Shown: positions 15,741-58,139 of the stretch, piece by piece
How the letters are laid out: each line of letters starts with the position of its first letter
Numbering within the stretch: the first letter of the stretch is position 1
Origin: an uncultured Acidobacteriota bacterium
Lineage (GTDB): Bacteria > Acidobacteriota > Vicinamibacteria > Vicinamibacterales > CAVVIG01
Direction: 5' to 3'
DNA: 64,000 nt
NCBI GenBank assembly: GCA_963840225.1
Contig: CAWIYH010000005.1
Location: 85,750-149,749 of the forward strand
The notes under the pieces: model-generated
Told to the model about the DNA's origin: nothing
The model's database searches: none
The model's input: only the letters and a program-made list of their open reading frames with translations
Position numbers and translations under genes: made by a program

Positions 15741-17100
15741 TCAAAACCACGCAACCCGGGTGCCAACAACCGGCGGCGCCGGGGCCGCCCGGCGTTCGCC
15801 GTTCAGAACCCCGGCGTCAGGTTGAACTGTAAAGATCCAGCCCTTGCCCGGCCGCTGCAACGGGCGAACGAGAAAGCTCGTGAACTTGACGCTGCCGAAC
15901 GTGGGCGCCCCCTCGATCCGGTAGCGCTGCCCCTGCACGGGGCTCGTCGCGCCGAAGCTCGACGTGTCGCTCACAAAGGCAGGGGCCGACGTGCCCAGGG
16001 TGAGCGAGCGGGCGAGCGAGGTCTCGGCGTGTCGTCGGACATGACTCGACCGGTCGAGAGCGAATACGCCGTTGAGCGCACGATCTGGTCGAATGAGACC
16101 TGAATCACACTGCCGCTCAGCTCCACCTGGTCAGCTCGGCTGAACGGGTACGCCGCGATGTCGGACGCGCTCCGCTTGGTCTGGCGGTAGACGGTGGCCC
16201 GATCGATCTCGACGACCTCTGTCGTGACGCCCGTGCCGATCTGGAAGCCTCCGCTCAGGTACGGCACTTGTCAGCCCACCAGCCCCCAGTTCCAGCGACG
16301 CGCCTGGTTGAAGTAGCCGGCCTGGGCGGCCGTGTCCTTCATGCTGAAGCCGCCGCCGATTCCCGAGCTGAACTGAGCGGCGGTGATCAGCGAGAACAAA
16401 CCAATGTGATCCAGGGTGAGCTCAGCAAGAGCACGGGCTCGATCGAGACGCTCGACCACCCGAGTACTTCCCGTACCGCTGGGGGCAGGCCTTCTGGGCG
16501 TACGTCCGCGGCCGGTGGGGCGACAACGTCATCCACCAGATGCTTGCCGTCGCGGCCGCATGTGGCGACGTCGGCGTTGCCGTCGAGAAGGTGCTGCACG
16601 TCGCGTTCGAGCGACGTCGCAGCCCTGCTGGCAGACCCGGCGTTCGGACTGCCCGAGCCGGTCGCGTACCCGTCGCGGGGATACAGCTCGAGGCTCTCGC
16701 TCGAGGGAGTGGGCCAGCCGGTGATCGCCATCGGGGCCAACCGGTTCGGCACCGCCTTCGGGGGAAGGCTGTCGCTCTATTTCAGCGACATGCTCGGCAA
16801 TCACTCAAAGTCGGGGTGCGAGGCGTACAGCACGAGCGGCTGCCGTCCGCGAAGCTGGTGCTCGCGAATTCGGGACAGCCTCGCGTGCCAGCGCTCGGCG
16901 AGCCGCGCGCTGATATCGACGCCGGCGCGCTCCTCGGGATAGAAGTAGATGTCGAAGTGTTCGGTCACGAGCACCTGAAACTTCATGTCCCTGTACTGGA
17001 CCTTGTTTCGTCCGAAATACTGCGCCGAGGCCGGGCTGCCGAACAGGAGTGCCGAGAGCGCCGCCGCCAGCGCGGCGCCGAGGCCGAAGCCAATGGGCAT
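15741..17100 (-). pseudogene. Remnant of a large peptidase-like/PD40/BamA-type outer membrane protein; deletions, stop codon and internal inversion
   Basis: Signal peptide then AQYFGRNKVQY...HFDIYFY...YASHPDFE on the minus strand; EQTNVIQGEL and FSDMLGNH on the plus strand; SLITAAQ...RWNWGLVG*QVPY and FGATSPVQGQRYR on the minus strand. Confidence 0.8.
15751..15766 (-). promoter_or_regulatory. sigma-54 (-24/-12) promoter of the GT4-debranching operon
   Basis: Minus strand TTGGCACCCGGGTTGC matches TGGCAC-N5-TTGC. Confidence 0.75.
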
Positions 17101-17197
17101 GACGTCTCCTGCCGTGGATGCCGGATTGTCGAGGGGTCGGCGCATCACGTTCCGCAGGGTAGAGGTAGCGGCAAATCGTCGAACAGCGGACGAAATA

Positions 17198-17229
17198 GCA
17201 ATGCGCTTGCCCGACGGCAGCCCGCTTGC
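17198..17229. promoter_or_regulatory. Back-to-back divergent sigma-54 motifs
   Basis: Minus GGCAAGCGCATTGC (17198-17211); plus GGCAGCCCGCTTGC (17216-17229). Confidence 0.6.
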
Positions 17230-17286
17230 ACTGACTGGTCGTGCGCTCGATCAGGCTGAAACCTTGATGCTGCCGCCTTCAGCCCC

Positions 17287-18438
17287 GCCCTTTTCACCGA
17301 CCTGTGCGAGCTCACGATGCTCCAGGCGTATTTCGAGGAGGGGATGAGCGAGACGGCCGTGTTCAGCCTGTTCGTCCGGAGACTGTCCGCGCGCTGCAAC
17401 TACCTGCTCGCCTGCGGTCTGGACGACGCGCTGCGCCTCCTCGAGACCCTGCGGTTCGACCAGCCGGCGCTCGCCTATCTCGAATCACCGGGGCGCTTCT
17501 CGCAGCGCTTTCTCCAGTATCTGGAGCGGCTTCGATTCACCGGCGACGTCTACGCGATCGCGGAAGGCACGCCGGTGTTCGCGAACGAGCCGGTCCTCGA
17601 GGTGGAGGGCCCGATCGCTGAGGCGGAGCTGGTGGAGGCGATGGTCATGAACCAGGTGCACCTCCAGACCGTGCTCGCCTCCAAGGCAGCGCGGGTCGTC
17701 GGAGCCGCGCTGGGGCGGCGCATCGTGGATTTCGGCCTGCGTCGGATGCACGGGATCGACGCGGGCCTCAAGGCGGCGAACCTCGCCGCGGGCGTGCACG
17801 CGACGTCGAACCTCGCCGCGGGACAGGCGTACGGTCTTGAGGTGGCCGGAATCTATGCCACCGAGGATCTCGTGCGAGGAATGGACGCGAAGGTCCACGA
17901 GCAGGTCGCCAACGTCGCGGCGCTGCCGGGTATCGTGCGCGCCTCGTACGCGATGCCAGAGGCGCACTGGGGCTACGGGTTTCCGATCGACGGCGTTGCA
18001 GCATTCGACGCCGACCGCGGCGGCGTCGTGTCGGCCGGTGGCGTGGGGTTCGATATCTCCTGCGGCGTCCGGCTGCTGCACACTGGCCTCACGCTGACGG
18101 AGTTCGCGCCGCTCAAGACGCGCGCGGCCGACGAACTGTCGCGCAGCGTGCCCGCAGGCGTCGGCAGCTCCGGCCGGCTGCATCTCGACGAGCCGGAGAC
18201 TGAGGCGATGCTGGCGGGTGGCGCCCGCTGGGCGGTGGCGCGAGGCTACGGCAGCCAGGACGACCTCCAACGGATCGAAGACCAGGGCTGCATGAGCGGA
18301 GCGGCGCCGGCTGAAGTGTCGCACCGAGCCAAGGATCGCCAGCGCTGGAGATTGACCCAGGTCGTCGACGCGGCCGACCGCGCAGGTCTCTCGCGCAAGG
18401 TCGCGCGCCTCGAACCGCTCGTGTGCATCAAGGGGTGA
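17287..18438 (+). pseudogene. Chimeric ORF: N-terminal nicotinate phosphoribosyltransferase (pncB) fused by deletion to a truncated RtcB RNA ligase
   Basis: ALFTDLCELTMLQAYF...DFGLRRMHG (PncB), then IYATEDL...MPEAHWGYGFPI...VGFDISCGVR (RtcB) and the RtcB C-terminus [13 protein letters not shown]; the middle of both genes is missing. Confidence 0.85.
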
Positions 18439-19396: not shown

Positions 19397-19504
19397 TTTC
19401 CACCCTCCTGCGGCGCGCCGCGAGCCGCCTGCCGCCCGAGAAGCACGTACCTTGCCCGGACTGGTCGCCGTCTGTCGAATCCGTGCGCCCGCCGCCTCCC
19501 GCAG

Positions 19505-19519
19505 TGGAACCGCAATTGC
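19505..19519 (+). promoter_or_regulatory. sigma-54 motif upstream of the sigma-70 gene
   Basis: TGGAACCGCAATTGC, 24 nt before ATG 19544. Confidence 0.65.
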
Positions 19520-19543: not shown

Positions 19544-21097
19544 ATGACCGCGCGCCTGGAGCTCGTCGATCCGATCGCTCTCCGGATCAATCGCGGACAG
19601 GTTCGAACGCCCGACCCGTCGCGATCCCTCGGCGGGGCTCCCACCGATCCGACCCTTGGCGATCCGGACCTGCCCGAGGGTCTCGCCATTGCCCTCGAAC
19701 CGGGGTGGGAAGACTGGGACCGGGCCGAGTCGACCATCGGCGAGGACGAGGAAGGGGCGCCGGCCGACGTCGAGCCGATTCGGACCTATCTCAACGAGAT
19801 GGCGCGCGTGCCGCTGCTGACGCGGGCCCAGGAGGCCGACGTCGGGCGCCGGATTGAAACGGCGCAGCGGAATCTGCTCGGCGCGCTTGCCACCATTCCG
19901 TTCGCGGTCGGGCGTCTCGTGGAGCTCTCGAGCCGCGTGCGGCGCCAGCAGGCGGCGTTCGAGGATCTGATCGTGTTCCCGGAAGGGCGCGACGTCGAGG
20001 TTGCCGAGGCGCTGTCGATCCTTCGCGTGTTCGGTCGCATCGGCCGGCTCGCGCAGCGCGCGCGCGCGTCCGATCTCAAGGCACACGATCGGCGACTCGC
20101 CACGCCGACGCGCGCCAAACACGCGCGACAGGCGACGCACGCGAGGGACGAACTGCACACGCTGCTGCTCGGGCAGCACGTCAAGCCTGCCGTGCTCGAC
20201 CGGCTCGTTGCCGAGCTGCGTGTGCTCGTCGGGGACCTCGACGCGGCCGAATCGATTTCCGATGCGGCGACGCGCGCCGAGCGCGTCCGTGCGCTCGAAG
20301 AGCGGCTCGAGATGCCGCGCCGAGTGTTCCGCGGGGCGCTGGCCCGTGCGCTGGCCCATGAGGAGGAGGCGCGCCGGGCCAAGCAGGCGCTCATCGAGGC
20401 GAATCTGCGGCTGGTCGTGTCGATTGCCAAGAAGTACACGGGGCGCGGGCTGTCGCTCCTCGACCTCATTCAGGAGGGCAATCTCGGCCTGATGAAGGGC
20501 GTCGATCGCTTCCAGTACCGGCGCGGGTTCAAGTTCTCGACCTACGCCACCTGGTGGATCCGGCAGGCGATTACCCGGGCGATCGCCGACTTCGGGCGCA
20601 CGATCCGGCTGCCGGTTCACGCGGTCGACGCGCTCAACCAGGTAGAGGCGGCGCGGCGCAGGCTTCGTGACGAGCTGCATCGCGAGCCGACGGTCCACGA
20701 GATCGCCGAGCGCGTCGATATCCCGCCGGATCGGCTGGAATTCCTGATGCGCGCGCGGAAGGAGCCGTATTCGCTCGACATGGCGATTGGCGACGAGACG
20801 CCGCTGGGCGCGTTCCTGACCCTCGAGGGGCCTTCGCCCGAGGAACTGGCGCTCGGCCGCGACCTGCAGTCGCGCGTCGGCCGCTATCTCGCGCGCCTCT
20901 CGGCCCGCGAGCGCAGCGTCATCTGCCTGAGGTTCGGCATCGGCACCGGCCGCGAGCACACGCTCGAGGAGATCAGCCGGCGGTACTCCCTCAGCCGCGA
21001 GCGCATCCGCCAGATCGAAGGCACGGCGATGAAGAAGCTCCGCAGGTCGCCCGTCGTCGGGTCGCCGCGGGGCCATAAGCTCCGCAGGATCGGCTGA
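19544..21097 (+). CDS. RNA polymerase sigma-70 factor (RpoD-like, group 2 type, lacking region 1.1)
   Basis: [17 protein letters not shown] (1.2), [41 protein letters not shown]...RERIRQIE. Confidence 0.93.
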
Positions 21098-21289
21098 CTC
21101 GCGGTCGAAATCATCACGAGTTCCCGGCATCGCGCCGGAAACTCGTCCCGCCAGAACGGCGGGCGCAGGCTCAATCGATCGCGCGCACCCTTCGGACGCT
21201 TCCGGCGAACCGATTGCCGTCGCGCCGGATTGCCGGCATCCGACAGCAAGGATTCGATGATGCCGATCGGCCGCGCCGCCCACGGCTGG

Positions 21290-21771
21290 CACGGCGGCGC
21301 TGTCGTGAGCCGCGCCCTGCTGCACAACCGTCGCGAAATCGCGTGCAAGGACCTGCGTGTCGGCGATCTCGTGCGCGTCATCCTGGCCGGCGACGTCATT
21401 CCGGACGTGGTCGCGCGCGTTCCGAACGGCCGTGCGCGGCGTCATCGGTCGTTCGTGATGCCGGCGCGCTGCCCGGCGTGCCACGCGCCGGTCGTCCACG
21501 AGGGCCCGTTCGACCGGTGTCCGAACGGTCTCGCGTGCCCGGCGCAGCTCGCACGGGCGCTGCAGTATTTCGGTTCGCGCGCCGCGCTCGCCAGGAGGCT
21601 GAGGAGCGCGCCAGGGCGAGTGGCGCGCGTACGTCGAGATCGGTCGGCGCCGACACGGATCTGGTCGTGGCGGGCGCCGAGCCGGGGACGAAATACGATC
21701 GGGCGCGCGCGATCGGCATCCCCGTCGTCGATGAGGGCCGGTTCGCGAAGCTCGTCGGCCTGCACATGTGA
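21290..21771 (+). pseudogene. ligA: C-terminal remnants of NAD-dependent DNA ligase (OB fold, Zn finger, BRCT)
   Basis: VSRALLHN...DLRVGD...AGDVIP, CPAC...CPNGLACPAQ; in another frame TDLVVAGAEPGTKYDRA...VVDE; adenylation domain absent. Confidence 0.85.
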
Positions 21772-21849
21772 GGCACGCGGTCATGGAGAACATCCATAGT
21801 CTCGCCAGATGACGCCCAGGCCCGGTGAACGGTCCGCCAGGCGGGCGTC

Positions 21850-22323
21850 AAGGCCGAGCTCGTGTTCGACGAGGGCGATCCCGCGCGGCGCATCGTGGAG
21901 CGGGCCGGAGCCCTCTCGGCCGACCTGATCGTGAGCTCGCGGGGCTTCGCTTCGCGTTCTCGCTGGCGGAGGAGTCCGACGCCGAGCTGACGCTTCTGCA
22001 ACGTGTTCGACTGGCCGGCGGACGACGAGCTGCTGGTGCAGCAGTTCGACGTACCGGAGTTCCGACGCGTCGTCGAGAAGGAGGCGCGCGAGCGGCTCGA
22101 CGCCCTGGTGACCGACGACGTCCGTCCCTGGTGCCGCCCGAAGACGACGGTTGCCTACGGGAAGGCGTACGCGGCGATTCTGGACGTCGCCGGACACGAA
22201 GCGGCCGATCTCATCGTGATGGGCGTGCGAGGACGGAATCCGCTCGATCTCGCCCTGTTCGGATCGACGACCAATCACGTCGTCCGGCGGGCAGCGTGCC
22301 CGGTCCTGACGCTGAAGCAGTAG
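21850..22323 (+). pseudogene. Fragmented tandem universal stress protein
   Basis: GDPARRIVERA...ADLIV fragment, AFSLAEESDAELTLL in a shifted frame, and ADLIVMGVRGR...FGSTTNHVVRRAACPVLT. Confidence 0.8.
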
Positions 22324-23184: not shown

Positions 23185-23519
23185 CCGATCGAACGGGGAC
23201 GCAAACGCGATACCGACCTCGTCGGCGATCGGCACTTGACAGAAGAGGGGAGTCGGCGTATTCGTACTAGTGAACCACGCAAGACAAGACGTGGAGGTTC
23301 TCGGATGACAGAGCCACCGGGCTTGAGGCGCGCGTCCTCGGAGGACTGAATCCTTCGACCACGCGCCAGCGACCAGCGGCACCGGAAGGAAAGTCCAAAA
23401 ATAATCCGGGCACTCGCCCGGATGCGTGTGAATCCCACACGCGTGAAGCGCCCGGCTCCCTGGCTCCCGCCAGAGACCGGGCGTTTCTAATGTACGCCGG
23501 CCTGCTTCCGCCTATTTCT

Positions 23520-24335: not shown

Positions 24336-24546
24336 CGGGTCGGTGCCGCTTCTTCCAGCCACCGCCCAAACGTACTTCCCCGGTCGGGGCGAGCGCAACC
24401 GCGCCGCGTCCGTGCCGGCCGTCGCGCGTCGTGACCCGGCTGCCGGGCGCCGGAATAGCGCCGGGACAGCGCCGGGTTTCCGGCAGAGATTCTCCTCTTG
24501 GCTCGGTAATCCTTCGCAAAAGTCGACATTTCTCATCCTCGAGGCC

Positions 24547-24560
24547 GGCACGCTGGTTGC
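24547..24560 (+). promoter_or_regulatory. sigma-54 motif
   Basis: GGCACGCTGGTTGC. Confidence 0.7.
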
Positions 24561-24614
24561 GGAACGTGTCTCAGGGACAGCCGGTGCGCTGTCCTTCGAC
24601 GCGGAGGATGCATC

Positions 24615-24974
24615 ATGAGCGACACGAAAACTGGCCTCGTCGATTCGAATGGGGTCGCGGATACGAGCCACGTCGGCGCGGAGCAGCTGATGACGCTCGC
24701 GGCAGCCGGGCGGCTGACCAAGCCGGTGATGGCGGCGCTGCTCGCGCAAGGCGCGCGCCAGCGCTTCCTGGAGTCCTGTGCGCACATCGAGCGCCGGTAC
24801 ACCGACGCGTGCGCGGCGAAGGGCGACCCGTGTCTCGAATCCGGCTGCTCGCTCGAGGGCGGCGACGAGATCTGCCTGCAGCCGCTGCTCGAGGCGGGAG
24901 ACGAATACAACCGGGCGTGCGCCGCCGAGTGGGTCAAGCTCTTCCAGCAGCCCGAGAATCGGCTCGGCGTATAA
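24615..24974 (+). CDS. Small Cys-rich hypothetical protein
   Basis: GGAGG RBS; 119 aa with six Cys (CAHIE...CAAKGDPCLESGCS...ICLQP...RAC). Confidence 0.75.
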   Translation: MSDTKTGLVDSNGVADTSHVGAEQLMTLAAAGRLTKPVMAALLAQGARQRFLESCAHIERRYTDACAAKGDPCLESGCSLEGGDEICLQPLLEAGDEYNRACAAEWVKLFQQPENRLGV

Positions 24975-25005
24975 CGCAACCGCGCGCGCGGTCGAACTGG
25001 CGATC

Positions 25006-25019
25006 GGCACGCTCGTTGC
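25006..25019 (+). promoter_or_regulatory. sigma-54 motif upstream of cfa
   Basis: GGCACGCTCGTTGC, 13 nt before ATG 25033. Confidence 0.7.
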
Positions 25020-25032
25020 CTCTGCCGTGCAC

Positions 25033-26253
25033 ATGCCGGACGGCCGCTGCCTCTACCCGGCCCCGACCTTTCCCACTCGTACGGCGACGTCGCCGGCCAC
25101 GGCGATCGATCGCTGGGCGGTGTCCCGCATCCAGCAGCGGGTCGCGCGCGGGCGGCTGCGCTTCCTGTTGTGGGACGGCTTCGAGGTGCCCTCAACCGCC
25201 GGTCCTTCCGTTGGCGCTATCCTCTTCAAGAACCGGCGGGCGCTTTACAGCTGGCTGTGGGATGCCGATCTGAACTTCGGCGAGACGTACATGTTCGGTT
25301 CGGTCGAGGTCCGGGGCGATCTGCTCGCGACTCTCGAGGAGGTCTACCGAGCCCTTGCCGAGTCCGGGCCGCCGCGGCCGCGCTGGTGGAGGGAGAACGA
25401 CGTCTCGAGGGCGAAGGCCAACGTCCACCACCACTACGATCTGGGCAACTCCTTCTACCGGCTGTGGCTCGACCGGCAGATGCTCTACACGTGCGCGTAC
25501 TTCCCGACCAGGGATTGCACGCTCGAGGAGGCCCAGCACGCCAAGATGGATCTGGTGTGCCGCAAGGTCGCGCTGAAGCCGGGCGAGCGCGTGGTCGAGG
25601 CGGGGTGCGGCTGGGGCGCGCTGGCGCTGTTCATGGCGAGGCACTACGGCGTCACGGTGCGGGCGTACAACGTCTCGCGCGAGCAGATCGCGTTCGCGCG
25701 CGAGCGCGCGGCGCGTGAAGGGCTCGCCGGACGGGTGGAGTTTGTCGAGGACGACTACCGCAACATCCGCGGCCAGTACGACGTGTTCGTGTCGGTGGGT
25801 ATGCTGGAGCACGTCGGATTGCCCGACTATCCCGTCCTCGGAGCCGTGGTCGATCGCGCGCTCGATCAAGAGGGCCGCGGCCTGCTGCACTTCATCGGCC
25901 GTGACGTGCCCGCGCCGCTCAATCGCTGGATCTGCAGGCGAATCTTTCCCGGCGCCTACCCTCCGGCGCTGCGGGAGGTGTTCGAGGGCGTCCTCGAGCC
26001 GAGCGCGCTGTCGGTCCTCGACGTCGAGAACCTCCGCCAGCACTATGCCGCGACGCTCGAGCACTGGCGCCGCCGGTTCGACGATTCGGCCGACCGCGTC
26101 GCCGCGATGTTCGACGAGAACTTCGTCCGCGCCTGGCGGCTGTACCTGGCCGGTTCCCACGCCGCGTTCACGACGGGGAGCATGCAGCTCTTCCAGGTCG
26201 TGTTCGCGCGCACCGGCAGCAATCGGATTCCCTGGACCCGCCGCGCCGGGTGA
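25033..26253 (+). CDS. cfa: Cyclopropane-fatty-acyl-phospholipid synthase family methyltransferase
   Basis: NVHHHYDLGN, YTCAYF, EAGCGWG, SVGMLEHVG, IFPG, HYAATL, WRLYLAG. Confidence 0.92.
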   Translation: MPDGRCLYPAPTFPTRTATSPATAIDRWAVSRIQQRVARGRLRFLLWDGFEVPSTAGPSVGAILFKNRRALYSWLWDADLNFGETYMFGSVEVRGDLLATLEEVYRALAESGPPRPRWWRENDVSRAKANVHHHYDLGNSFYRLWLDRQMLYTCAYFPTRDCTLEEAQHAKMDLVCRKVALKPGERVVEAGCGWGALALFMARHYGVTVRAYNVSREQIAFARERAAREGLAGRVEFVEDDYRNIRGQYDVFVSVGMLEHVGLPDYPVLGAVVDRALDQEGRGLLHFIGRDVPAPLNRWICRRIFPGAYPPALREVFEGVLEPSALSVLDVENLRQHYAATLEHWRRRFDDSADRVAAMFDENFVRAWRLYLAGSHAAFTTGSMQLFQVVFARTGSNRIPWTRRAG

Positions 26254-26276
26254 CGGGCGTCCGCCTGGGTTCCGGC

Positions 26277-27395
26277 ATGGTGAGCTGCGACGTGGTGGTG
26301 GTCGGCGGAGGGCCCGCCGGATCGACCTGCGCATGGAGGCTTCGACAGGCCGGCGCCGACGTCGTCGTGGTGGATCGGGCGACGTTTCCCCGGGACAAGG
26401 TCTGCGCCGGCTGGATCACGCCTCCCGTCGTGGACGCCCTGTGTCTGGACGTCGACGACTACCGGCACGGTCGCACGTTTGAAGCGATCTGCGGATTCTC
26501 GATTGGTATGATCGGTCGGACCAGGTCCATCAAGGCGGCATACGGCCATCCCGTCAGCTTCGCGATCCGCCGGTGCGAATTCGACGACTACCTGCTGAAG
26601 CGATCGGGCGCACGGCTGCTGCTGGGAACGGCAGTGACCTCGACTCGCCGCGCCGCCGGCGCATGGATCGTCAACGACACGATTCGGGCGCCGATGCTGG
26701 TCGGCGCCGGCGGACATTTCTGCCCTGTGGCCCGATGGCTCAACCAAGGCGAGCAGCCTCGTCGCGAGGCCCCGCTTGTCGTCGCCCAGGAAGCCGAATG
26801 GGCGCTCTGCGGGCGCCAGAGCCGGGGCGATGCCGACGACCTCCCGCAACTGTTCTTCTGCCGGGACCTGAAAGGGTACGGATGGTGCGTGCGGAAAGGC
26901 GGATTCGTGAACGTCGGTCTTGGCCGCGTGGACCCTCATGCGCTGCACGGCGCGCTCGAGGAATTCGTGGCATTTCTCGTCGACCGCGGGGCGCTTCACG
27001 CCGCCGCCCCCCGGCGCTGGAACGGTCACGCGTACCTTCTCGCCGACCGACGCCACCGCCGCGTCGTCGGCGACGCCGTCCTGCTCGCGGGCGATGCGGC
27101 AGGCCTGGCCGACAGCCGGAGCGGAGAGGGGATTCGGCAGGCGATCGAGTCCGGCCTGGCCACCGCGTCGGCCGTGGTCGACGCGGGCGGGCAGTACACA
27201 CGCGACCGGCTCGAGTCCTACGAGGCGCGGCTCTTCAGGGCGGCGCCCTCGACGGATGGCCTGGCGGCCCGGGCGGCGGCGTCGTCGGTTGCGCAGGCGC
27301 TGGGCAGGACGCTGCTGCTGGTTCCGCCGTTCGTGCGGCACGTCGTCATCGAACGCTGGTTCCTCCAGCGCGTGCCGCTTCCATCGCGAGCGTGA
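26277..27395 (+). CDS. Geranylgeranyl-reductase family FAD-dependent oxidoreductase
   Basis: DVVVVGGGPAGS, FPRDKVCAG, RRCEFD, GYGW, GDAAGL...GEGI. Confidence 0.9.
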   Translation: MVSCDVVVVGGGPAGSTCAWRLRQAGADVVVVDRATFPRDKVCAGWITPPVVDALCLDVDDYRHGRTFEAICGFSIGMIGRTRSIKAAYGHPVSFAIRRCEFDDYLLKRSGARLLLGTAVTSTRRAAGAWIVNDTIRAPMLVGAGGHFCPVARWLNQGEQPRREAPLVVAQEAEWALCGRQSRGDADDLPQLFFCRDLKGYGWCVRKGGFVNVGLGRVDPHALHGALEEFVAFLVDRGALHAAAPRRWNGHAYLLADRRHRRVVGDAVLLAGDAAGLADSRSGEGIRQAIESGLATASAVVDAGGQYTRDRLESYEARLFRAAPSTDGLAARAAASSVAQALGRTLLLVPPFVRHVVIERWFLQRVPLPSRA

Positions 27396-27533
27396 GGTCC
27401 CGCCCGTGCAGCCTGCCGCCGGGCCGGCGTAAGGCAGTGATTGAGCGACCCGTACACTCCAACCGTGATCTCGCTCATCCGACCATGAGCCGACGCATGA
27501 AGCGTCGGGTTTCGTATGATAGCGTGACAGAAT

Positions 27534-29201
27534 GTGTCTGGGATGAGACGGAGCGCGAGCGCGGCCGACCCACTGTGGTACAAGGACGCGATCATCTACG
27601 AGGTGCCGGTCAAGTCGTACTGCGACGGTAACGGCGATGGCATCGGCGACTTCCAGGGCCTGCAGGGGAAGCTCGACCATCTGCAGACCCTCGGCGTCAC
27701 CTGCCTGTGGCTGCTGCCGTTCTTCCCCTCGCCGCTCAAGGACGATGGGTACGACATCGCCGATTACGTGAACGTCCACCCGAGCTATGGGACCCTGGAC
27801 GATTTCAAGCGGTTCCTCGACGCGGCCCACCAGCGGCAGCTGCAGGTGGTCGTCGAGCTCGTCCTCAACCACACGTCCGACCAGCATCCCTGGTTCCAGC
27901 GGGCACGATCGGCGGCGCTGGGCACGCCGGAGCGCGACTATTATGTCTGGAGCGACACCGACCAGCGGTACGGCGACGCCCGCATCATCTTTGTCGACGC
28001 CGAGCGCTCCAACTGGACGTGGGATCCGGAGGCGCGCGCGTACTACTGGCACCGGTTCTTTCATCACCAGCCGGATCTGAACTACGACAACCCCGCCGTC
28101 GTGCGCGAGATGGTGGGCGTGCTCGATTTCTGGCTCGATCTCGGCGTGGACGGCTTCCGGCTCGACGCCGTGCCGTACCTCGTCGAGCGGGACGGCACCA
28201 GCTGCGAGAACCTGGACGCGACGCACGCCATCATCAAGGCGATCCGGCAGCATCTCGACGCGCGCGGCCCTGGGCGGCTGCTGCTGGCGGAGGCGAACCA
28301 GCCACCGGCCGAGGTCCGGACGTACTTCGGGGACGGCGACGAATGCCACATGGCGTATCACTTCCCGCTGATGCCGCGCATCTTCATGGGGCTGCATCTC
28401 GAGGACCGCAAGCCGATCGTCGACGTGATGGAGCACACGCCGCAGATTCCGCCGACCTGCCAGTGGGCCCTGTTCCTGCGCAACCATGACGAGCTGACCC
28501 TCGAGATGGTCACCGACGACGAGCGCGACTACATGTACCTCGCGTACAGCCTGGATCCGCAGGCGCGCCTGAACCTGGGGATCCGGCGTCGTCTGGCGCC
28601 GCTCGTCGGCAACAGCCGGCGCCGCATCGAGCTGCTCAACGCGCTCCTGTTCTCCTTTCCCGGCACGCCGATCCTCTACTACGGCGACGAGATCGGGATG
28701 GGTGACAACCTGTACCTCGGCGATCGTAACGGCGTGCGCACGCCGATGCAGTGGACGAGCGACCGCAACGCGGGCTTTTCGCGTGCCGATCCGGAACGCC
28801 TCTACAGCCCGATCATCATGGACGCGGTCTACGGCTACCAGGGGGTGAACGTCGAGGCCCAGGAGAGCGACAACGCGTCGCTCCTGCACTGGATGCGCAA
28901 CATGATCCGCCTGCGCCGGCTGTTCAAGGTCTTCGGCCGCGGCGCGATCGAATTCCTGCAGCCGGAGAACCTGAAGGTCCTCGCGTATGTCCGCCGGTTC
29001 GACGAGGACGTGATCCTGTGCGTCGCGAACCTGTCGCGGTCGGCGCAGCCGGCCGAGCTCGATCTGCAGGCGTTCGTCGGGTCGGTGCCCGTGGAGATGC
29101 TCGGCTACACCGAGTTTCCGCCGATCACGGCGGCGCCCTACTTCCTGACGCTTGGCCCCTATGGCTTCTACTGGTTCGAGCTCCAGCGTCCACGGGACTG
29201 A
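27534..29201 (+). CDS. treS: Trehalose synthase (maltose alpha-D-glucosyltransferase), GH13
   Basis: [52 protein letters not shown]. Confidence 0.95.
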
Positions 29202-30432: not shown

Positions 30433-30479
30433 CGCGCCGGCCGGGACGGCCCCGTTTCATTCAGCCGTGAGGAGCAGTC

Positions 30480-34330: not shown

Positions 34331-34391
34331 GGGGGGTAGCGGCGCTGGCGGAACTCCGGCAGCCAGGGTCACAGCGGCCGCGAATTGGCCT

Positions 34392-34405
34392 GGTCCGTAT
34401 CTTGC
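34392..34405 (+). promoter_or_regulatory. sigma-54 motif upstream of the USP gene
   Basis: (T)GGTCCGTATCTTGC. Confidence 0.6.
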
Positions 34406-54915: not shown

Positions 54916-55569
54916 ATGAAGCGTGTGGCAGTGATGCTTGTGGTCGTCGTGGCATGCGCCGGCACGGCGCGCGCGCAGTCGGCTCCGACCGCCACGTCGG
55001 ACAGCCGGTGGGACGCCGAATTCACCGTCGGCCCGACCTTCGGCCACAAGGCCAGCGTTTCGCTCGGCGGGGAGATCGGCTGGTGGCTCACCGACAAGCT
55101 CGGGATCTACGGCGAGGGCGGCCGCATCCTGAACGTCGCGAGCAGCGAAATCGAGAGCCACGCGGCGGTCGTCGCCGACTACATCGGCGGTTCGGCCGAC
55201 GTCAAACAGCACGTGAACTACTTCGACGCCGGCGTGAAGTACCGCCTGCCGCCACACGGCCGGCTGCGGCCGTACGCGCTCTTCGGCGTCGGCGCCGGGA
55301 CCGTCTTCAACGACGTGACGTTCAATGTCGCCGGCGCGGACGTGACCGGGTCGCTCCTCGATCAGTTCGGCGTCGCGCTGGGCAGCGACCTGTCGGGCCA
55401 CTACAATCGGGTGTTCATCACCACCGGCTTCGGCACCCGCCTGCCTCTCACCGGTCGCTGGGTCGGCGACCTCAGCTATCGGTACGGGTATGTCGGCAAG
55501 AACGCCGACGCCAATCTCAAGGGAATCAGCACGAACCGGCTGCAGTTCGGCGTCGGACTCACCTTCTGA
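54916..55569 (+). CDS. Outer membrane beta-barrel (OmpW/OmpA-like) protein
   Basis: GGAGG RBS, signal peptide, RPYALFGVG, C-terminal FGVGLTF. Confidence 0.85.
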   Translation: MKRVAVMLVVVVACAGTARAQSAPTATSDSRWDAEFTVGPTFGHKASVSLGGEIGWWLTDKLGIYGEGGRILNVASSEIESHAAVVADYIGGSADVKQHVNYFDAGVKYRLPPHGRLRPYALFGVGAGTVFNDVTFNVAGADVTGSLLDQFGVALGSDLSGHYNRVFITTGFGTRLPLTGRWVGDLSYRYGYVGKNADANLKGISTNRLQFGVGLTF

Positions 55570-55606
55570 TCGCCGGCTGTTTCAACTGATCGCCGGCTGT
55601 TTCAAC
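55566..55606 (+). repeat. Exact 20-bp tandem duplication
   Basis: CTGATCGCCGGCTGTTTCAA x2, spanning the OMP stop codon. Confidence 0.95.
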
Positions 55607-55634
55607 GACGGCTCAGCTGGGTCGACCGAGGCTC

Positions 55635-55648
55635 GGCGTGGCTCTTGC
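55635..55648 (+). promoter_or_regulatory. sigma-54-like motif
   Basis: GGCGTGGCTCTTGC upstream of the lectin gene. Confidence 0.45.
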
Positions 55649-55697
55649 TGTGTCTTCCGATCGACTGTTGAATGAACGGGACGCAGAGGAGGTGATC

Positions 55698-56546
55698 ATG
55701 TTCAAGACAGCCCTCGCGACGACGGCGGTCGTGGTCTGCGCCGCAGGATATGCCTTCGCCCAGGGTGCGCGCGCAACATTCATCCTGACGGACGGCGAGC
55801 GCAAGAGCGGCACGATCGTCGCCCACGGCTCGGACCACGAAAACCTGATCAACGGCTACCTGAACCTCGGCCAGCAGAACGACAAGGACCTGACGTTTCC
55901 GCAAAGCCAGGTGGCCGTGATCGACTTCGTCGGCGGCCAGCCGCCCTCCTCCGAGCTGCAGGCGCTGCCGTCCGGCACCGGCGACATGCTGGCCCTACGC
56001 AACGGCTCCAACCTGAAGGGACAGCTCGCGAACCTCGTCAACGGGGACACGGTGCTGTGGAGAAACCAGGCGGGCCAGACACAGCGCTACGCCATCAGCG
56101 ACGTCAAGCGAATCTACCTGAACCCGGAGAGCGCCCGCACCGCCTACAACTACACGCCGAGCGACGCGGCGGGCGCATCGGCTGGCCAGGCCACGCCCGG
56201 CGCGGTGCAGGTGCTTGCGAACCAGGCCTGGACACCGACCGGCGTGATGGTCAAGAAGGGGGATCGGGTCACGTTCGACGCGAGCGGCCAGATTCAATTC
56301 GGCCAGGGCTCGGGGATGACCACCGGTCCCGGCGGCGGCACCCTGCGCAACGGCGCCTATCCGGTCCCGGCGGCGTCGGTCGGCGCGCTCATCGCCAAGG
56401 TCGGCGCCAGCACGCCGTTTCCGATCGGCACCAACTCCCAGCCGATCGTGATGCCGGCGAGCGGCCAATTGATGCTGGGCGTGAACGACAACGAGGTCAA
56501 CGACAACTCCGGCTCGTTCTCCGTCGTCGTGAGGAAGGTCGGGTAG
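55698..56546 (+). CDS. Secreted protein with a C-terminal LecA/PA-IL-like domain
   Basis: VLANQAWTPTG...ASGQI...GALIAKVG...LMLGVND...DNSGSF; GGAGG RBS. Confidence 0.8.
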   Translation: MFKTALATTAVVVCAAGYAFAQGARATFILTDGERKSGTIVAHGSDHENLINGYLNLGQQNDKDLTFPQSQVAVIDFVGGQPPSSELQALPSGTGDMLALRNGSNLKGQLANLVNGDTVLWRNQAGQTQRYAISDVKRIYLNPESARTAYNYTPSDAAGASAGQATPGAVQVLANQAWTPTGVMVKKGDRVTFDASGQIQFGQGSGMTTGPGGGTLRNGAYPVPAASVGALIAKVGASTPFPIGTNSQPIVMPASGQLMLGVNDNEVNDNSGSFSVVVRKVG

Positions 56547-56609: not shown

Positions 56610-57284
56610 TTACCGGCTCTCGCCCTGCAGCGCGTCGATGAAGGGCTTGGTGGCGGGCGGCGTCGCGATGGTGGTGCCGCTCAACACCTCCTTGGGCGTG
56701 ACGTTGTCGCCGTACAGATCCCCGTTGGCGTCGGTATCCGGCTTCACGACGCCTCCCGACAGGTTGATTCCGGCAAACAGGCCCTGCGTACGGGAGTAGG
56801 AGAGGATCTCCGCCTGCATCTGCGCGTCGGTCGCCGCCCGCGCGTCGCGTCCGACCGGACCGGCCGCGATCGACGCTTCGGCGCCGAGCGAGACCTTGTT
56901 GCCGAGCAGTTTCTGCATCCCCGACTCGTTCATGACGAGCAGGACCAGATCGATCGACTGCGCGCCGATCTGCAGCCCCCAGCTGCCCTTGCCGATCTGC
57001 ATGAACACGGGCGCGGCCCAGCCCTCGCCGCGGCGGCAGCTCATCAAACCGCCGCCGTACTCGCCGCCGAAGACGAAGGCGGCCTTCTTCAGCGACGGCA
57101 CGACGATGACGCACTGCGCCTTGTTCCAGAGATCGCGTGGAATGTCCTTGTCCGGCACCGAGTGAATCTCGCGCAGCACGGTCGCCGCATCCTGAATCCG
57201 CCTGCGCTCCTTGCTCGACAGGTCGGCGTGAAGGCCGACCGTCGCCACGGCCAGGGCAGCCGCGATTCCGATCACTTGTCGCAT
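56610..57284 (-). CDS. Ysc84/SYLF lipid-binding domain protein
   Basis: KKAAFVFGGEYG.G, GSWGLQIGAQ, AAGPVGR, SYSRTQGLFAG. Confidence 0.92.
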   Translation of the reverse strand: MRQVIGIAAALAVATVGLHADLSSKERRRIQDAATVLREIHSVPDKDIPRDLWNKAQCVIVVPSLKKAAFVFGGEYGGGLMSCRRGEGWAAPVFMQIGKGSWGLQIGAQSIDLVLLVMNESGMQKLLGNKVSLGAEASIAAGPVGRDARAATDAQMQAEILSYSRTQGLFAGINLSGGVVKPDTDANGDLYGDNVTPKEVLSGTTIATPPATKPFIDALQGESR

Positions 57285-57340
57285 AGTCCCTCCGGGGAAG
57301 CCCAGTAAGAACGTTACCAGATCATGGTCGAGTCCGGGGC

Positions 57341-58027
57341 TCAAACCCTGCGCAGCCTGCGCGTGCGGTGGCGGTACTGGAAGGCGCCGCATCCGGACGG
57401 GCACTGGTAGTAGTCCCACTGCTCGTCGCTGTGCGAGCTGACGCCGCCCACGTGGCTCCGGGCGTAGGTGAGCCGTCGGTCGCAGTGCGGGCAGGACAGC
57501 ACGGGCGGCGCAAGCGGAGGGCGCGTCGTCTCGCCCCGCTGAATCGCGCGCGCCACGGTCTTCCGATCCTTGCCGCGCTGCGGCGCGCGCAGGCGCGTGA
57601 TCGTCCGGCCGAGCGTCTCGGCGGAGGCCTGGCGGAGGGCGACGAGGCGCTGCAGCTCTCCGAGCAGCGTCTCGGGCAGACAGGGCTTCACCAGGACGCT
57701 GTCGGCCCCGGCCTCGCGAGCGCGCTGGAGATCGGCCGGCTGCGCGTCCCCGGTCACGACCACGAGCATCATGGAAGCCGTGGACGGATCGCCGCGCAGC
57801 AGCCGGCAGAGTTCCGTGCCGTCGATGCCCGGCAGGCGCGTGTCGGTCACGAGGGCGTCGGGACGGCGCGACAGGGCCATGGCGAGCGCTTCGCGGCCAT
57901 CCTCCACCTGAACGACCTCGCATTGCGCCCGCGTGAGGTATTCCGCGTACATGGCGCGCGTGTCTTCGTCGTGGTCGGCGAGCAGCGTCACCGTTGGAGC
58001 CGTCGGCCGCAGCGCGGGTGAGGTCAT
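57341..58027 (-). CDS. Response regulator with a C-terminal Cys4 zinc-ribbon-like domain
   Basis: LLADHD...VTDTRLPGIDG...VTG...KP; CPHC...CPSGC. Confidence 0.85.
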   Translation of the reverse strand: MTSPALRPTAPTVTLLADHDEDTRAMYAEYLTRAQCEVVQVEDGREALAMALSRRPDALVTDTRLPGIDGTELCRLLRGDPSTASMMLVVVTGDAQPADLQRAREAGADSVLVKPCLPETLLGELQRLVALRQASAETLGRTITRLRAPQRGKDRKTVARAIQRGETTRPPLAPPVLSCPHCDRRLTYARSHVGGVSSHSDEQWDYYQCPSGCGAFQYRHRTRRLRRV

Positions 58028-58125
58028 AGGCAAGGGAGGACTGCCTCACCTTATACGGCACGGTTCAGCCGTCGGCAAGCCAAAATTTGTTGACGCGTCG
58101 TGCCGGCCGGCCGTGCGCGTACCGG

Positions 58126-58139
58126 GGCACGGCGCTTGC
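58126..58139 (+). promoter_or_regulatory. sigma-54 motif
   Basis: GGCACGGCGCTTGC, 25 nt before ATG 58165. Confidence 0.7.

What the first reader, a model, noticed from the sequence alone, without database searches (positions are those of the whole stretch)
15751..58139. Putative large sigma-54 (RpoN) stress/dormancy regulon
GG-N10-GC motifs, nearly all ending TTGC, sit in the correct orientation upstream of at least 11 units: 15751-64(-, GT4), 17198-211(-, OMP remnant), 17216-29(+, pncB), 19443-56(-), 19506-19(+, sigma-70), 23201-14(-, PolX-N), 24547-60(+), 25006-19(+, cfa), 34392-405(+, USP), 55635-48(+), 58126-39(+). Housekeeping genes here show TANNNT boxes instead. The cargo (USP, Hsp20, NAD salvage, cfa, glycogen, RtcB) resembles DosR/SigB-type regulons, suggesting a general-stress programme run by sigma-54 in this lineage. 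Several sites imply very short or absent leaders.
Basis: partly seen in the sequence, partly recalled or inferred. Interest (0 to 1): 0.75.

Follow-up and report, generated by a model that had tools for sequence, protein, structure and literature searches.

The report
Real sigma-54 promoters, several circuits

Summary
All 11 motifs are at the stated coordinates. As bare GG-N10-GC they are no commoner than chance (1523 vs 1470 expected). The extended consensus TGGCA(C/T)-N5-TTGC is very strongly confined to gene-upstream DNA genome-wide.

The genome (Vicinamibacterales-like) has a complete rpoN and about 37 strong activator (bEBP) genes. It has roughly 170-240 predicted sigma-54 promoters.

Of the 11 sites:
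- Six score at least 12 bits.
- Three marginal ones (19519+, 24560+, 34405+) gain support from conservation or an upstream palindrome.
- Two (19443-, 23201-) have no support.

There is no single regulon. Only 24560+ and 34405+ carry the palindrome GCCGGAWWTCCGGC, which marks a sub-regulon of about 35 promoters (hydrogenase, cytochromes, POR, Usp). The other seven share no enhancer. No Hsp20 gene lies in the window, and pncB/rtcB is a deletion remnant.

Start codons peak exactly 14 nt after the -12 GC (19 vs 3.1 expected, p=1e-9), as at cfa, here and in relatives. This implies leaderless sigma-54 transcripts.

Earlier scan notes on other genomes reported similar acidobacterial sigma-54 stress regulons and start-codon-abutting sigma-54 promoters. 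All evidence here is computational.

The parts
15751..15765 (-). Sigma-54 promoter TGGCACCCGGGTTGC, 32 nt before the GTG of the GT4 gene (14676-15719), which is followed by a GDE-like glycosidase gene (12508-14676)
   Evidence: Exact consensus, 12.7 bits. Genome-wide, 14 of 15 exact matches are gene-upstream. One of 4 evaluable orthologues (54% identity or more) has a site of 12 bits or more, L169 at 12.6. No palindrome upstream.
17198..17212 (-). Sigma-54 promoter GGGCAAGCGCATTGC, facing the rearranged remnant (about 15780-17148) of a PD40-repeat protein gene
   Evidence: 15.7 bits. The same-genus genome G001 has a weaker counterpart AGGCAGCGCATTTGC (9.4 bits) before an intact 1019-aa gene. 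Frame-shifting coding signal and an inverted segment relative to G001.
17215..17229 (+). Sigma-54 promoter CGGCAGCCCGCTTGC, 88 nt before the pncB'-'rtcB fusion ORF (17317-18438); back-to-back with the previous promoter, 2 nt apart
   Evidence: 15.2 bits. Conserved in G001 (CGGCAGTCGCTTTGC, 14.8 bits) before a full-length pncB followed by rtcB.
19505..19519 (+). Probable sigma-54 promoter TGGAACCGCAATTGC, 24 nt before the ATG (19544) of a sigma-70-family paralogue (19544-21097)
   Evidence: 9.6 bits. G001 keeps TGGAACCATGATTGC (9.8 bits) with the same 24-nt spacing to its ATG in otherwise diverged DNA. One more orthologue (L298) has a 14.6-bit site; 4 others score 5.1 or less. Pfam regions 1.2, 2, 3, 4.
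24471..24484 (.). Enhancer-type palindrome GCCGGGTTTCCGGC, centred 68 nt upstream of the 24546 promoter
   Evidence: 16.3 bits, against a null 99th percentile of 15.8 for 250-nt intergenic windows. Palindrome plus promoter recurs before the orthologous gene in 5 of 7 relatives, mostly at 67-69 nt.
24546..24560 (+). Sigma-54 promoter CGGCACGCTGGTTGC, 55 nt before a conserved 119-aa protein of no Pfam family (24615-24974)
   Evidence: 10.3 bits. G001 has 12.7 bits at the same place. Four of 7 relatives have 10 bits or more.
25005..25019 (+). Sigma-54 promoter CGGCACGCTCGTTGC with the ATG (25033) of cyclopropane-fatty-acid synthase 14 nt after the C; probably leaderless. Likely operon 25033-31178 (FAD oxidoreductase, TreS-like amylase, unknown, MscS-like)
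   Evidence: 13.3 bits. G001 keeps the motif and the 13-nt spacer length while the spacer sequence differs. Three further relatives have 13.0-17.0-bit sites before cfa.
34347..34360 (.). Palindrome GGCGGAACTCCGGC, centred 37 nt upstream of the 34391 promoter
   Evidence: 12.7 bits, null 95th percentile 7.1. It lies on the preferred helical phase of the genome-wide set.
34391..34405 (+). Possible sigma-54 promoter TGGTCCGTATCTTGC, 16 nt before the GTG (34421) of a Usp gene (34421-34867)
   Evidence: 9.8 bits. Not conserved in the 83%-identical G001 orthologue, best -4.1. Four more distant orthologues have 7.8-11.8-bit sites 36-62 nt upstream.
55634..55648 (+). Sigma-54 promoter CGGCGTGGCTCTTGC, 44 nt before a secreted PA-IL-like lectin-domain protein (55692-56546)
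   Evidence: 14.1 bits. G001 has 11.7 bits. Eight of 29 relatives' loci have 11.3-18.9-bit sites 20-63 nt upstream.
58125..58139 (+). Sigma-54 promoter GGGCACGGCGCTTGC, 26 nt before the ATG (58165) of a DUF6496 small protein (to 58404), with GGAGG in between
   Evidence: 15.6 bits. Four of 16 relatives' loci have 11.5-15.4-bit sites 15-28 nt upstream, and 3 more have 7.1-9.9 at the same place.
19443..19456 (-). Listed motif, not supported
   Evidence: 10.1 bits and ends GTGC. It points at the 3' end of a convergent TonB_C gene, with no ORF of 100 aa or more downstream. The flanks do not align with G001.
23201..23214 (-). Listed motif, not supported
   Evidence: 3.9 bits, a level at which coding DNA holds about 70 hits per 100 kb. 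No counterpart of 7 bits or more before the G001 orthologue. An ATG does follow at 17 nt, just before the HHH_8 domain.

Best explanation
Nine of the eleven motifs are promoters read by RNA polymerase carrying sigma-54 (RpoN). Each is silent until an AAA+ enhancer-binding protein, bound upstream and triggered by its own signal, remodels the closed complex.

They do not form one regulon. They are local members of a genome-wide network of roughly 170-240 sigma-54 promoters served by about 37 activators.

Two of them (24546-24560 before a conserved 119-aa protein, and 34391-34405 before a Usp gene) carry the helix-phased palindrome GCCGGAWWTCCGGC. This palindrome marks a sub-regulon of about 35 promoters: NiFe hydrogenase and HypF, c-type cytochromes, pyruvate:ferredoxin oxidoreductase, ferredoxin, Usp. 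It looks like a redox or low-oxygen survival set run by one unidentified NtrC-type activator.

The other seven promoters have no shared enhancer and presumably answer to other activators. They precede GT4/GDE, the PD40 remnant, the pncB'-'rtcB remnant, a sigma-70 paralogue, cfa, a PA-IL-like protein and DUF6496.

At cfa (and perhaps Usp) the start codon lies 14 (16) nt after the -12 GC, so transcription probably begins on or within 1-2 nt of the start codon and gives a leaderless mRNA.

What is shown here: motif statistics, rpoN and bEBP presence, conservation in relatives, and the palindrome-promoter association. What is inferred: RpoN dependence, transcription start sites, the inducing signals and the identity of the activators.
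For: Machinery:
- rpoN is complete (AID+CBD+DBD) with hpf downstream.
- 48 PF00158 hits, of which about 37 exceed 200 bits.

Motif statistics:
- The consensus is restricted to gene-upstream DNA. Exact matches: 14 upstream / 0 wrong-way / 1 coding. One mismatch: 117/16/89. PWM at 12 bits or more: 169/13/95.
- Six window sites score 12 bits or more.

Conservation in the syntenic contig of the same-genus genome G001:
- 17229+ (14.8 bits)
- 17198- (9.4)
- 19519+ (9.8, identical 24-nt spacing)
- 24560+ (12.7)
- 25019+ (10.9, identical 13-nt spacer length with a different sequence)
- 55648+ (11.7)
- a 10.6-bit site at the place of 58139+

Wider conservation:
- PA-IL-like protein: 8 of 29 loci.
- DUF6496: 4 of 16 strong plus 3 weaker.
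- The 119-aa protein: 4 of 7.
- cfa: 4 of 17 orthologues of 54% identity or more.

Palindrome:
- 35 of 83 intergenic palindromes of 12 bits or more have a sigma-54 site 20-200 nt downstream, against 1 at 320-500 nt and 6 on the wrong side.
- Distances are helically phased: R=0.47, Rayleigh p=0.004 at 10.5 nt.
- It occurs at 24560+ (16.3 bits, 68 nt) and 34405+ (12.7 bits, 37 nt) but scores 2.1 bits or less at the other nine listed sites.
- Members are listed and named through.

Leaderless spacing:
- An ATG/GTG opening a long coding ORF lies at d=14 in 19 cases, against 3.1 per position at baseline (Poisson p=1e-9).
- 16 of 19 have no SD-like 4-mer. By my reading of the printed flanks, 16 of 19 have C at -1.
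- In relatives, my hand tally of the 150 listed matches (200 more were not listed) gives 20 at d=14 and 16 at d=15, against 4-10 at other spacings.
- Leaderless sigma-70-type starts are common too: TANNNT begins at -15 to -12 in 251 of 2818 upstream regions.
Against: - There is no transcript evidence of any kind. No RNA run was listed, so no start site, no RpoN dependence and no inducing condition has been observed.
- Three of the nine sites score under 10.5 bits, a range where about half of gene-upstream hits are expected to be chance.
- The Usp site is absent from the closest orthologue.
- 17198- and 17229+ sit 2 nt apart, which leaves no room for an intervening enhancer, and both face decayed genes, so they may no longer work.
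- GT4 conservation is weak (1 of 4).
- Gene starts come from a home-made caller, and the PWM was trained on this genome.
- The functional label 'redox/low-oxygen' rests on Pfam names only.
- The one kinase-activator pair that carries its own palindrome (C1:213.6-217 kb) was found in only 5 of 40 relatives and not in G001, where the palindrome is conserved. It is therefore probably not the regulator.
Confidence: 0.8

Rival explanations
1. The motifs are chance matches in 69% G+C DNA and have no promoter function.
For: Bare GG-N10-GC is at chance level. Sites 19443- and 23201- behave like background. At 9-10.5 bits roughly half of gene-upstream hits are expected by chance.
Against: The strong intergenic and orientation bias of the full consensus. 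Site-by-site conservation in G001 and further relatives within otherwise diverged spacers. rpoN and many bEBPs are present.
Confidence: 0.05
2. All the sites form one general-stress or dormancy regulon under a single activator, as the first reader proposed (DosR/SigB-like).
For: The cargo includes Usp, cfa, a trehalose/glycogen-type enzyme, DUF6496 and a sigma-70 paralogue. Genome-wide, KGG, BON and YtxH genes often have sigma-54 sites. Earlier scan notes report single-enhancer stress regulons in other Acidobacteria.
Against: Only 2 of the 9 credible sites carry the palindrome; the rest score 2.1 bits or less against a null median of -0.2. There are no shared 12-mers above shuffles and no shared upstream motif among DUF6496 or PA-IL orthologues. 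The genome-wide target list is heterogeneous. Hsp20 0 of 5 and Usp 1 of 6 with strong sites.
Confidence: 0.08
3. The stress-like character comes indirectly. Sigma-54 switches on the sigma-70-family paralogue at 19544-21097, which then runs a general-stress programme, a cascade like RpoN-RpoS in Borrelia (recalled from the literature).
For: A TGGAAC-N5-TTGC site with conserved spacing lies before the paralogue here and in G001, and there is a 14.6-bit site in one further orthologue. The protein has regions 1.2-4 like group 1/2 sigma factors, and the genome holds two other RpoD-like genes.
Against: The site scores only 9.6 bits. Four of 6 orthologues lack it. No promoter motif for the paralogue was sought or found. 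The other window genes have their own sigma-54 sites.
Confidence: 0.25
4. The start codons 14-15 nt after the GC are not the real translation starts, so the transcripts have ordinary leaders and the spacing peak has another cause.
For: Start codons were chosen by my own coding-potential caller. In 5 of 19 cases the frame stays open for more than 300 nt upstream. No start site or N-terminal data exist.
Against: The peak is sharp (19 at d=14, against 1 at d=13 and 3.1 at baseline) and does not depend on the gene caller. 16 of 19 lack an SD. Relatives show the same peak. At cfa the G001 alignment starts at this Met and keeps the spacing. The genome clearly uses leaderless sigma-70-type starts.
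Confidence: 0.15

Closest known systems
Canonical sigma-54 / enhancer-binding-protein promoters (glnAp2 with NtrC, nifH with NifA; consensus TGGCAC-N5-TTGC, recalled from Barrios et al. 1999)
   Same: The same -24/-12 consensus. A complete RpoN, many AAA+ activators, and for two sites a dyad-symmetric upstream site at helix-phased distance.
   Different: The lineage (Vicinamibacterales) has no experimental sigma-54 work in the papers I searched: one search returned 1 paper, not on the topic by its title and abstract start. Seven of nine sites have no recognisable enhancer. Some promoters abut the start codon.
NmpRSTU / NmpR oxygen-utilisation regulon of Myxococcus xanthus (PMC11841059; abstract and passages read)
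   Same: An NtrC-like activator with a dyad site upstream of sigma-54 promoters, in a soil bacterium. The paper's text discusses universal stress and CBS proteins, and its regulon genes are described as related to oxygen utilisation. This resembles the palindrome sub-regulon here.
   Different: The NmpR site is GCGCA-N5-TGCGC, usually in pairs. Here the site is GCCGGAWWTCCGGC, mostly single. No NmpRSTU-like operon was identified, and the regulator is unknown.
Rrp2-RpoN-RpoS cascade of Borrelia burgdorferi (recalled, not checked here)
   Same: A sigma-54 promoter directly upstream of a sigma-70-family stress-type sigma gene.
   Different: The site here is marginal (9.6 bits) and conserved only in the closest relatives. 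The paralogue's regulon is unknown.
RtcR-sigma-54 control of rtcBA in E. coli (recalled)
   Same: In the same-genus relative a sigma-54 promoter precedes pncB-rtcB.
   Different: In this window rtcB is truncated and fused to the 5' part of pncB. No RtcR-type activator lies nearby.
Leaderless mRNAs from -10-type promoters (Actinobacteria, Deinococcus; PMC3160421, seen only in the search listing and abstract start)
   Same: A promoter element at a fixed distance from the start codon and no Shine-Dalgarno. This genome shows the TANNNT signature too.
   Different: Here the fixed-distance element is the sigma-54 -12 box. By my recollection the phyla best known for leaderless genes lack rpoN. Of their representatives in the tool's control set, Deinococcus, Thermus and Corynebacterium gave no Sigma54_DBD hit.
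DosR (Mycobacterium) and SigB/RpoS general-stress regulons
   Same: Overlap in cargo types: Usp, small stress proteins (KGG, BON, YtxH), hydrogenase, storage-sugar enzymes.
   Different: A different transcription mechanism and several independent circuits. Hsp20 genes are not included here.

Membership tests
Sigma-54-dependent (-24/-12) promoter | GG and GC 10 nt apart within the TGGCAC-N5-TTGC consensus | tested here: met
   Six of 11 sites score 12 bits or more and three score 9.6-10.3 on the genome's own PWM. 23201- fails at 3.9. 19443- ends GTGC.
Sigma-54-dependent (-24/-12) promoter | Host encodes sigma-54 with its three domains | tested here: met
   A 476-aa ORF with Sigma54_AID, CBD and DBD.
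Sigma-54-dependent (-24/-12) promoter | Host encodes AAA+ enhancer-binding activators | tested here: met
   48 PF00158 hits, of which about 37 exceed 200 bits. None lies in the window.
Sigma-54-dependent (-24/-12) promoter | Sites lie in non-coding DNA and point at a gene, in excess over coding and wrong-way DNA | tested here: met
   Density at 12 bits or more: 18.9 (upstream) / 1.9 (wrong-way) / 0.9 (coding) per 100 kb. Nine of 11 window sites have a downstream gene.
Sigma-54-dependent (-24/-12) promoter | Transcription starts about 11-14 nt after the GC and needs RpoN and an activator | not testable with these tools
   No RNA run was listed for this DNA.
Sigma-54-dependent (-24/-12) promoter | Upstream activator site (enhancer) | tested here: inconclusive
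   Found for 24560+ and 34405+. Nothing was found for the other seven.
Single-activator stress/dormancy regulon (DosR-like in logic) | One shared cis element in front of all members | tested here: not met
   The palindrome is present at 2 of the 9 credible sites. Shared words are at chance level.
Single-activator stress/dormancy regulon (DosR-like in logic) | Coherent stress cargo | tested here: inconclusive
   The window cargo is mixed and partly decayed. Genome-wide: KGG 2/2, BON 2/5, YtxH 1/3, CsbD 0/1, Usp 1/6, Hsp20 0/5 with sites of 12 bits or more. The families were chosen after the fact.
NmpR-type oxygen-utilisation regulon | NtrC-like regulator binding GCGCA-N5-TGCGC pairs | tested here: not met
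   The enriched dyad is GCCGGAWWTCCGGC. The NmpR consensus is from PMC11841059.
Leaderless mRNA genes | Promoter element at a fixed distance from the start codon, no Shine-Dalgarno | tested here: met
   A peak of 19 at d=14 against a baseline of 3.1. 16 of 19 have no SD-like 4-mer. cfa in the window is at d=14, conserved in G001.
Leaderless mRNA genes | The 5' end of the transcript coincides with the start codon | not testable with these tools
   No RNA data.
RpoN-to-alternative-sigma cascade | Sigma-54 promoter directly before a sigma-70-family gene, conserved | tested here: inconclusive
   9.6 bits here. Conserved with identical spacing in G001 and as a 14.6-bit site in one further orthologue; not found (5.1 bits or less) in 4 others.

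The most novel reading that the evidence does not exclude
In Vicinamibacterales, enhancer-dependent sigma-54 transcription has taken over much of the role that RpoS or SigB plays elsewhere. It would switch on small general-stress proteins (KGG, BON, YtxH, DUF6496, Usp), membrane cyclopropanation, hydrogenase and cytochromes, and even a sigma-70 paralogue. In addition, roughly one sigma-54 promoter in seven is fused to its gene so that transcription starts on the start codon. That would couple an all-or-none, activator-gated promoter to Shine-Dalgarno-independent translation. I did not find this combination described in the papers searched.
Probability: 0.3. Interest if true: 0.7.

Novelty: new variant of a known kind. 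Interest (0 to 1): 0.5.

Why it matters
Acidobacteria of this order are abundant in soil and almost unstudied genetically. This analysis yields three things that can be tested directly once a cultured relative or a soil metatranscriptome is examined:
- a usable sigma-54 promoter model;
- a defined enhancer palindrome with about 35 target promoters (hydrogenase, cytochromes, POR, Usp);
- a list of conserved sigma-54-driven small stress proteins.

The fixed 14-nt spacing between the -12 box and the start codon, seen here and in relatives, suggests that sigma-54 promoters can feed leaderless translation. That would matter for gene-start annotation in these genomes, where many starts are probably miscalled. 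It would also matter for understanding how tightly gated genes are expressed without a ribosome-binding site.

For the finding as written, the practical lesson is that bare GG-N10-GC matches are uninformative in G+C-rich DNA. A cluster of sigma-54 sites near stress-type genes also need not be one regulon.

Tried and rejected
- RNA evidence: no RNA holder was listed for window 24400-27400. One soil-metagenome DNA run held 0.11 of the sampled words.
- Shared enhancer among the nine window promoters by 12-mers with up to 1 mismatch: 18 pairs against 20.6 in shuffles. My first exact-half-site palindrome screen gave only weak hints (GCCGGA-N2-TCCGGC in 4 regions vs 0 in the control). I followed these up only after reading earlier scan notes.
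- Upstream motif shared by DUF6496 or PA-IL orthologues: the best 9-mers were no better than in shuffles.
- The kinase plus NtrC-type activator at C1:213.6-217 kb as regulator of the palindrome set: it has its own palindrome and promoter. However, it was found in only 5 of 40 relatives at E<=1e-60 and not in G001, so it is disfavoured.
- Hsp20 in the window: none found. The 5 genomic copies lie on C2 and C7.
- Systematic sigma-54 control of Usp and Hsp20: 1 of 6 and 0 of 5.
- A 15-mer that I back-guessed for the G001 sigma-70 upstream site was not found.
- Literature: 'sigma-54'+'leaderless' gave 9 papers and 'RpoN'+'leaderless'+'transcription start site' gave 24 papers, of which 15 were listed. 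None was on the topic by title. Passages of PMC3616915 treat the two subjects separately. 'Acidobacteria'+'sigma-54'+'enhancer-binding' gave 1 unrelated paper. PMC3162934 has no occurrence of 'Acidobacteria'. Supplements were not opened.

Full report
**What was checked first.** The window is G000:C5:85750-149749 of a 5.99-Mb, 69% G+C genome in 8 contigs. The nearest named PurA relative is a Vicinamibacterales MAG at 75% identity, which agrees with earlier scan notes that call this genome a soil acidobacterium. All eleven motifs are present at the stated coordinates and strands, and ten end in TTGC.

TGGC-N7-TTGC with one mismatch is only mildly enriched (64 vs 49.3 +/- 6.7).

**Is sigma-54 there, and is the motif real genome-wide?** A 476-aa rpoN has all three sigma-54 domains and the usual hpf gene downstream. 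The genome gives 48 hits to the sigma-54 interaction domain, about 37 of them above 200 bits, and none lies in the window.

I called genes with a simple codon-usage caller (4918 genes). I then classed each motif hit as coding, upstream of and pointing at a gene, or intergenic but pointing the wrong way.
- TGGCAC-N5-TTGC exact: 14 / 0 / 1 (upstream / wrong-way / coding).
- One mismatch: 117 / 16 / 89, that is 13.1 / 2.3 / 0.86 per 100 kb.
- A PWM refined on the upstream hits reads T-GG-C-A-(C/T)-N5-T-T-G-C-(T/C). At 12 bits or more it gives 169 / 13 / 95. At 10 bits or more it gives 241 / 36 / 371.

So this genome has roughly 170-240 sigma-54 promoters. About 90% of upstream hits at 12 bits or more are expected to be real, and about half of those near 10 bits.

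**The eleven sites.** PWM scores:
- 17198-: 15.7
- 58139+: 15.6
- 17229+: 15.2
- 55648+: 14.1
- 25019+: 13.3
- 15751-: 12.7 (an exact consensus; my caller had put a doubtful 77-aa ORF over it)
- 24560+: 10.3
- 19443-: 10.1
- 34405+: 9.8
- 19519+: 9.6
- 23201-: 3.9

The window holds 5-6 strong sites. 48 of 690 sliding 64-kb windows hold 5 or more and 24 hold 6 or more, so it is rich but not exceptional.

**Phylogenetic footprinting.** A same-genus genome (G001) has a contig syntenic with the window at 72-90% nucleotide identity in aligned blocks. The G001 counterparts are:
- pncB: 14.8 bits, matching 17229+.
- The divergent partner: 9.4 bits, matching 17198-, before an intact 1019-aa PD40-repeat gene.
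- The sigma-70 paralogue: TGGAACCATGATTGC, 9.8 bits, with the same 24 nt to the ATG in otherwise unalignable DNA.
- The 119-aa protein: 12.7 bits.
- cfa: 10.9 bits.
- The PA-IL-like protein: 11.7 bits.
- A 10.6-bit site where DUF6496 would be. That gene is missing in G001.

Across 40 relatives:
- PA-IL-like genes have 11.3-18.9-bit sites 20-63 nt upstream in 8 of 29 loci.
- DUF6496 genes have 11.5-15.4-bit sites 15-28 nt upstream in 4 of 16 loci, and 3 more have weaker sites at the same place.
- The 119-aa protein has sites of 10 bits or more in 4 of 7.
- cfa has them in 4 of 17 orthologues of 54% identity or more.
- GT4 has one in 1 of 4 evaluable orthologues.
- The sigma-70 paralogue has one in 2 of 6.

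The Usp site is not conserved in the 83%-identical G001 orthologue (best -4.1). Four more distant orthologues have 7.8-11.8-bit sites at 36-62 nt. 19443- points at the end of a convergent gene and has no counterpart. 23201- has none either.

**One regulon or many?** The first gene downstream of 154 strong sites is very mixed:
- signalling: activators, kinases and response regulators;
- five or six MacB-type permeases;
- envelope functions: glycosyltransferases, PEGA and pilus proteins, LpxC, MreB;
- redox and energy: NiFe hydrogenase small subunit and HypF, five c-type cytochromes, POR, ferredoxin;
- stress-type proteins: KGG, BON, YtxH, Usp, CBS, cold-shock protein, ClpB, AhpC, DksA, gas-vesicle protein;
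- metabolism: GlgX-like amylases, NadE, AsnB.

Family by family, the share of copies with a site of 12 bits or more directly upstream is KGG 2 of 2, BON 2 of 5, YtxH 1 of 3, CsbD 0 of 1 (9.3 bits), Usp 1 of 6 and Hsp20 0 of 5. The baseline is 154 of 4918 genes. So small general-stress proteins lean towards sigma-54, but I picked these families after the fact, and the classic chaperone and Usp families do not follow.

**An enhancer defines one sub-regulon.** My first searches for a shared upstream site were negative or weak. Earlier scan notes on other Acidobacteria mention a 14-16-bp palindrome shared by stress promoters, so I followed up the weak hint GCCGGA-N2-TCCGGC.
- Of 8 exact copies in the genome, 7 are intergenic.
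- With a PWM, 35 of 83 intergenic palindromes of 12 bits or more have a sigma-54 site 20-200 nt downstream in the right orientation. Only 1 does at 320-500 nt and 6 on the wrong side.
- Distances are helically phased (R=0.47, p=0.004 at 10.5 nt).
- The 42 promoter-palindrome pairs include HypF, the hydrogenase small subunit, three cytochrome genes, POR, a ferredoxin, a Usp, a response regulator, a kinase-activator operon and several unknowns.

In the window the palindrome stands before 24560+ (16.3 bits, 68 nt) and 34405+ (12.7 bits, 37 nt), both on the preferred phase. It scores 2.1 bits or less at the other nine listed sites. The null for 250-nt intergenic windows has a median of -0.2, a 95th percentile of 7.1 and a 99th percentile of 15.8.

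Palindrome plus promoter recurs before the 119-aa protein gene in 5 of 7 relatives, mostly at 67-69 nt. It also recurs before cfa in two relatives. This rescues the two marginal sites and shows that the other seven credible promoters answer to something else.

The regulator is not identified. The kinase/NtrC pair that carries its own palindrome was found in only 5 of 40 relatives and not in G001. The nearest described system in logic is NmpRSTU of Myxococcus xanthus, but its site is GCGCA-N5-TGCGC.

**Short and absent leaders.**
- Genome-wide, the distance from the C of the -12 GC to the called start codon peaks sharply at 14 nt: 11 of 169 sites.
- Without using gene calls, an ATG/GTG that opens a long ORF with coding signal occurs at d=14 in 19 of 277 strong hits. 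The figure is 1 at d=13, and the baseline is 3.1 per position (p=1e-9).
- 16 of the 19 lack an SD-like 4-mer, and by my reading 16 have C at -1.
- In relatives the pattern TGGCA-N6-TTGC-N{6,24}-ATG gives, in my hand tally of the 150 listed matches (200 more were not listed), 20 at d=14 and 16 at d=15, against 4-10 at other spacings.
- The genome also shows the classic leaderless signature for -10 boxes: TANNNT starts at -15 to -12 in 251 of 2818 upstream regions, and only 689 of 2818 have an SD-like 4-mer.

In the window:
- cfa has its ATG at d=14, conserved in G001 with a different spacer sequence.
- Usp has a GTG at d=16.
- The sigma-70 paralogue would have a leader of about 12 nt, DUF6496 about 13 nt and GT4 about 19 nt.

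Known sigma-54 start sites lie about 11-14 nt after the GC (recalled from the literature), so d=14 means a leader of 0-2 nt. I found no paper linking sigma-54 and leaderless transcripts. An earlier scan note reports the same spacing in a myxobacterium.

**State of the cargo.** Compared with G001, the stretch 15.8-24 kb is decayed.
- The PD40 gene is rearranged, with one segment inverted.
- pncB and rtcB, two full genes in G001, are one 373-aa ORF joining pncB residues 1-182 to part of rtcB.
- A tandem Usp with its own 13.7-bit promoter in G001 is cut down to a 106-aa fragment without a promoter.
- About 8 kb after the sigma-70 gene is missing.
- The two divergent promoters at 17198/17229 are 2 nt apart here, whereas in G001 their GC positions lie 83 nt apart.

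These may be real deletions or assembly faults in a metagenome-derived genome.

**Verdict.** Sigma-54 is real and widely used, and a stress-type subset exists. But there are several circuits and not one regulon, some of the named cargo is absent or broken, and two sites fall away.

The mechanism is the ordinary sigma-54/activator switch. The unusual feature is the fixed abutment of many such promoters to start codons. Everything rests on sequence statistics and comparison; no transcript data were available.

Noticed in passing
window 17317-18438 (+): One 373-aa ORF joins the N-terminal 182 residues of nicotinate phosphoribosyltransferase to about 170 residues of RtcB. In the same-genus genome these are two separate full-length genes about 1.3 kb apart, so this is a deletion fusion or an assembly fault. 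An intact pncB paralogue lies at G000:C5:154537-155097.
   Followed up: partly
window about 15780-17148 (-): The coding signal jumps between three reading frames, and one segment (16442-16806) is inverted relative to G001, where a 1019-aa PD40/DPPIV_N beta-propeller protein is intact.
   Followed up: partly
window 21100-22323: The Usp gene at 22003-22323 covers only profile positions 60-140. G001 has a tandem-Usp ORF with a 13.7-bit sigma-54 site at the matching place and about 8 kb of extra DNA after the sigma-70 gene.
   Followed up: partly
window 55567-55606 (+): Two perfect tandem copies of the 20-mer TGATCGCCGGCTGTTTCAAC end about 28 nt upstream of the PA-IL promoter. They are not present in G001. 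Possibly an activator site or a recent duplication.
   Followed up: no
window 58422-58437 (+): TATACT lies 7 nt before the GTG of the 313-aa unknown protein (58435-59376) and is conserved in G001. This is a likely leaderless -10-type promoter inside what would otherwise be read as the DUF6496 operon.
   Followed up: no
whole genome G000: TANNNT hexamers start 12-15 nt before called start codons in 251 of 2818 upstream regions, and only 689 of 2818 have an SD-like 4-mer. Leaderless translation seems common in this lineage.
   Followed up: partly
L204, L209, L210 (and further upstream in L202): relatives' PA-IL loci: A motif CAG(A/G)ATACCA sits within about 10 nt upstream of the -24 element in three relatives' PA-IL promoters. 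It is absent from the window's copy.
   Followed up: no
G000:C2:1.43-1.55 Mb and C1:176-272 kb: These stretches hold the densest clusters of strong sigma-54 sites (7-9 per 64 kb). The C2 cluster carries Hsp20, Usp, CBS, cytochrome c and FeoB genes, two activator genes and several palindromes, so it may be the core of the palindrome regulon.
   Followed up: no
window 24615-24974 (+): A 119-aa protein with no Pfam family is found in 7 of 40 relatives, nearly always behind palindrome plus sigma-54 promoter and next to cfa in the two closest. Its function is unknown.
   Followed up: partly
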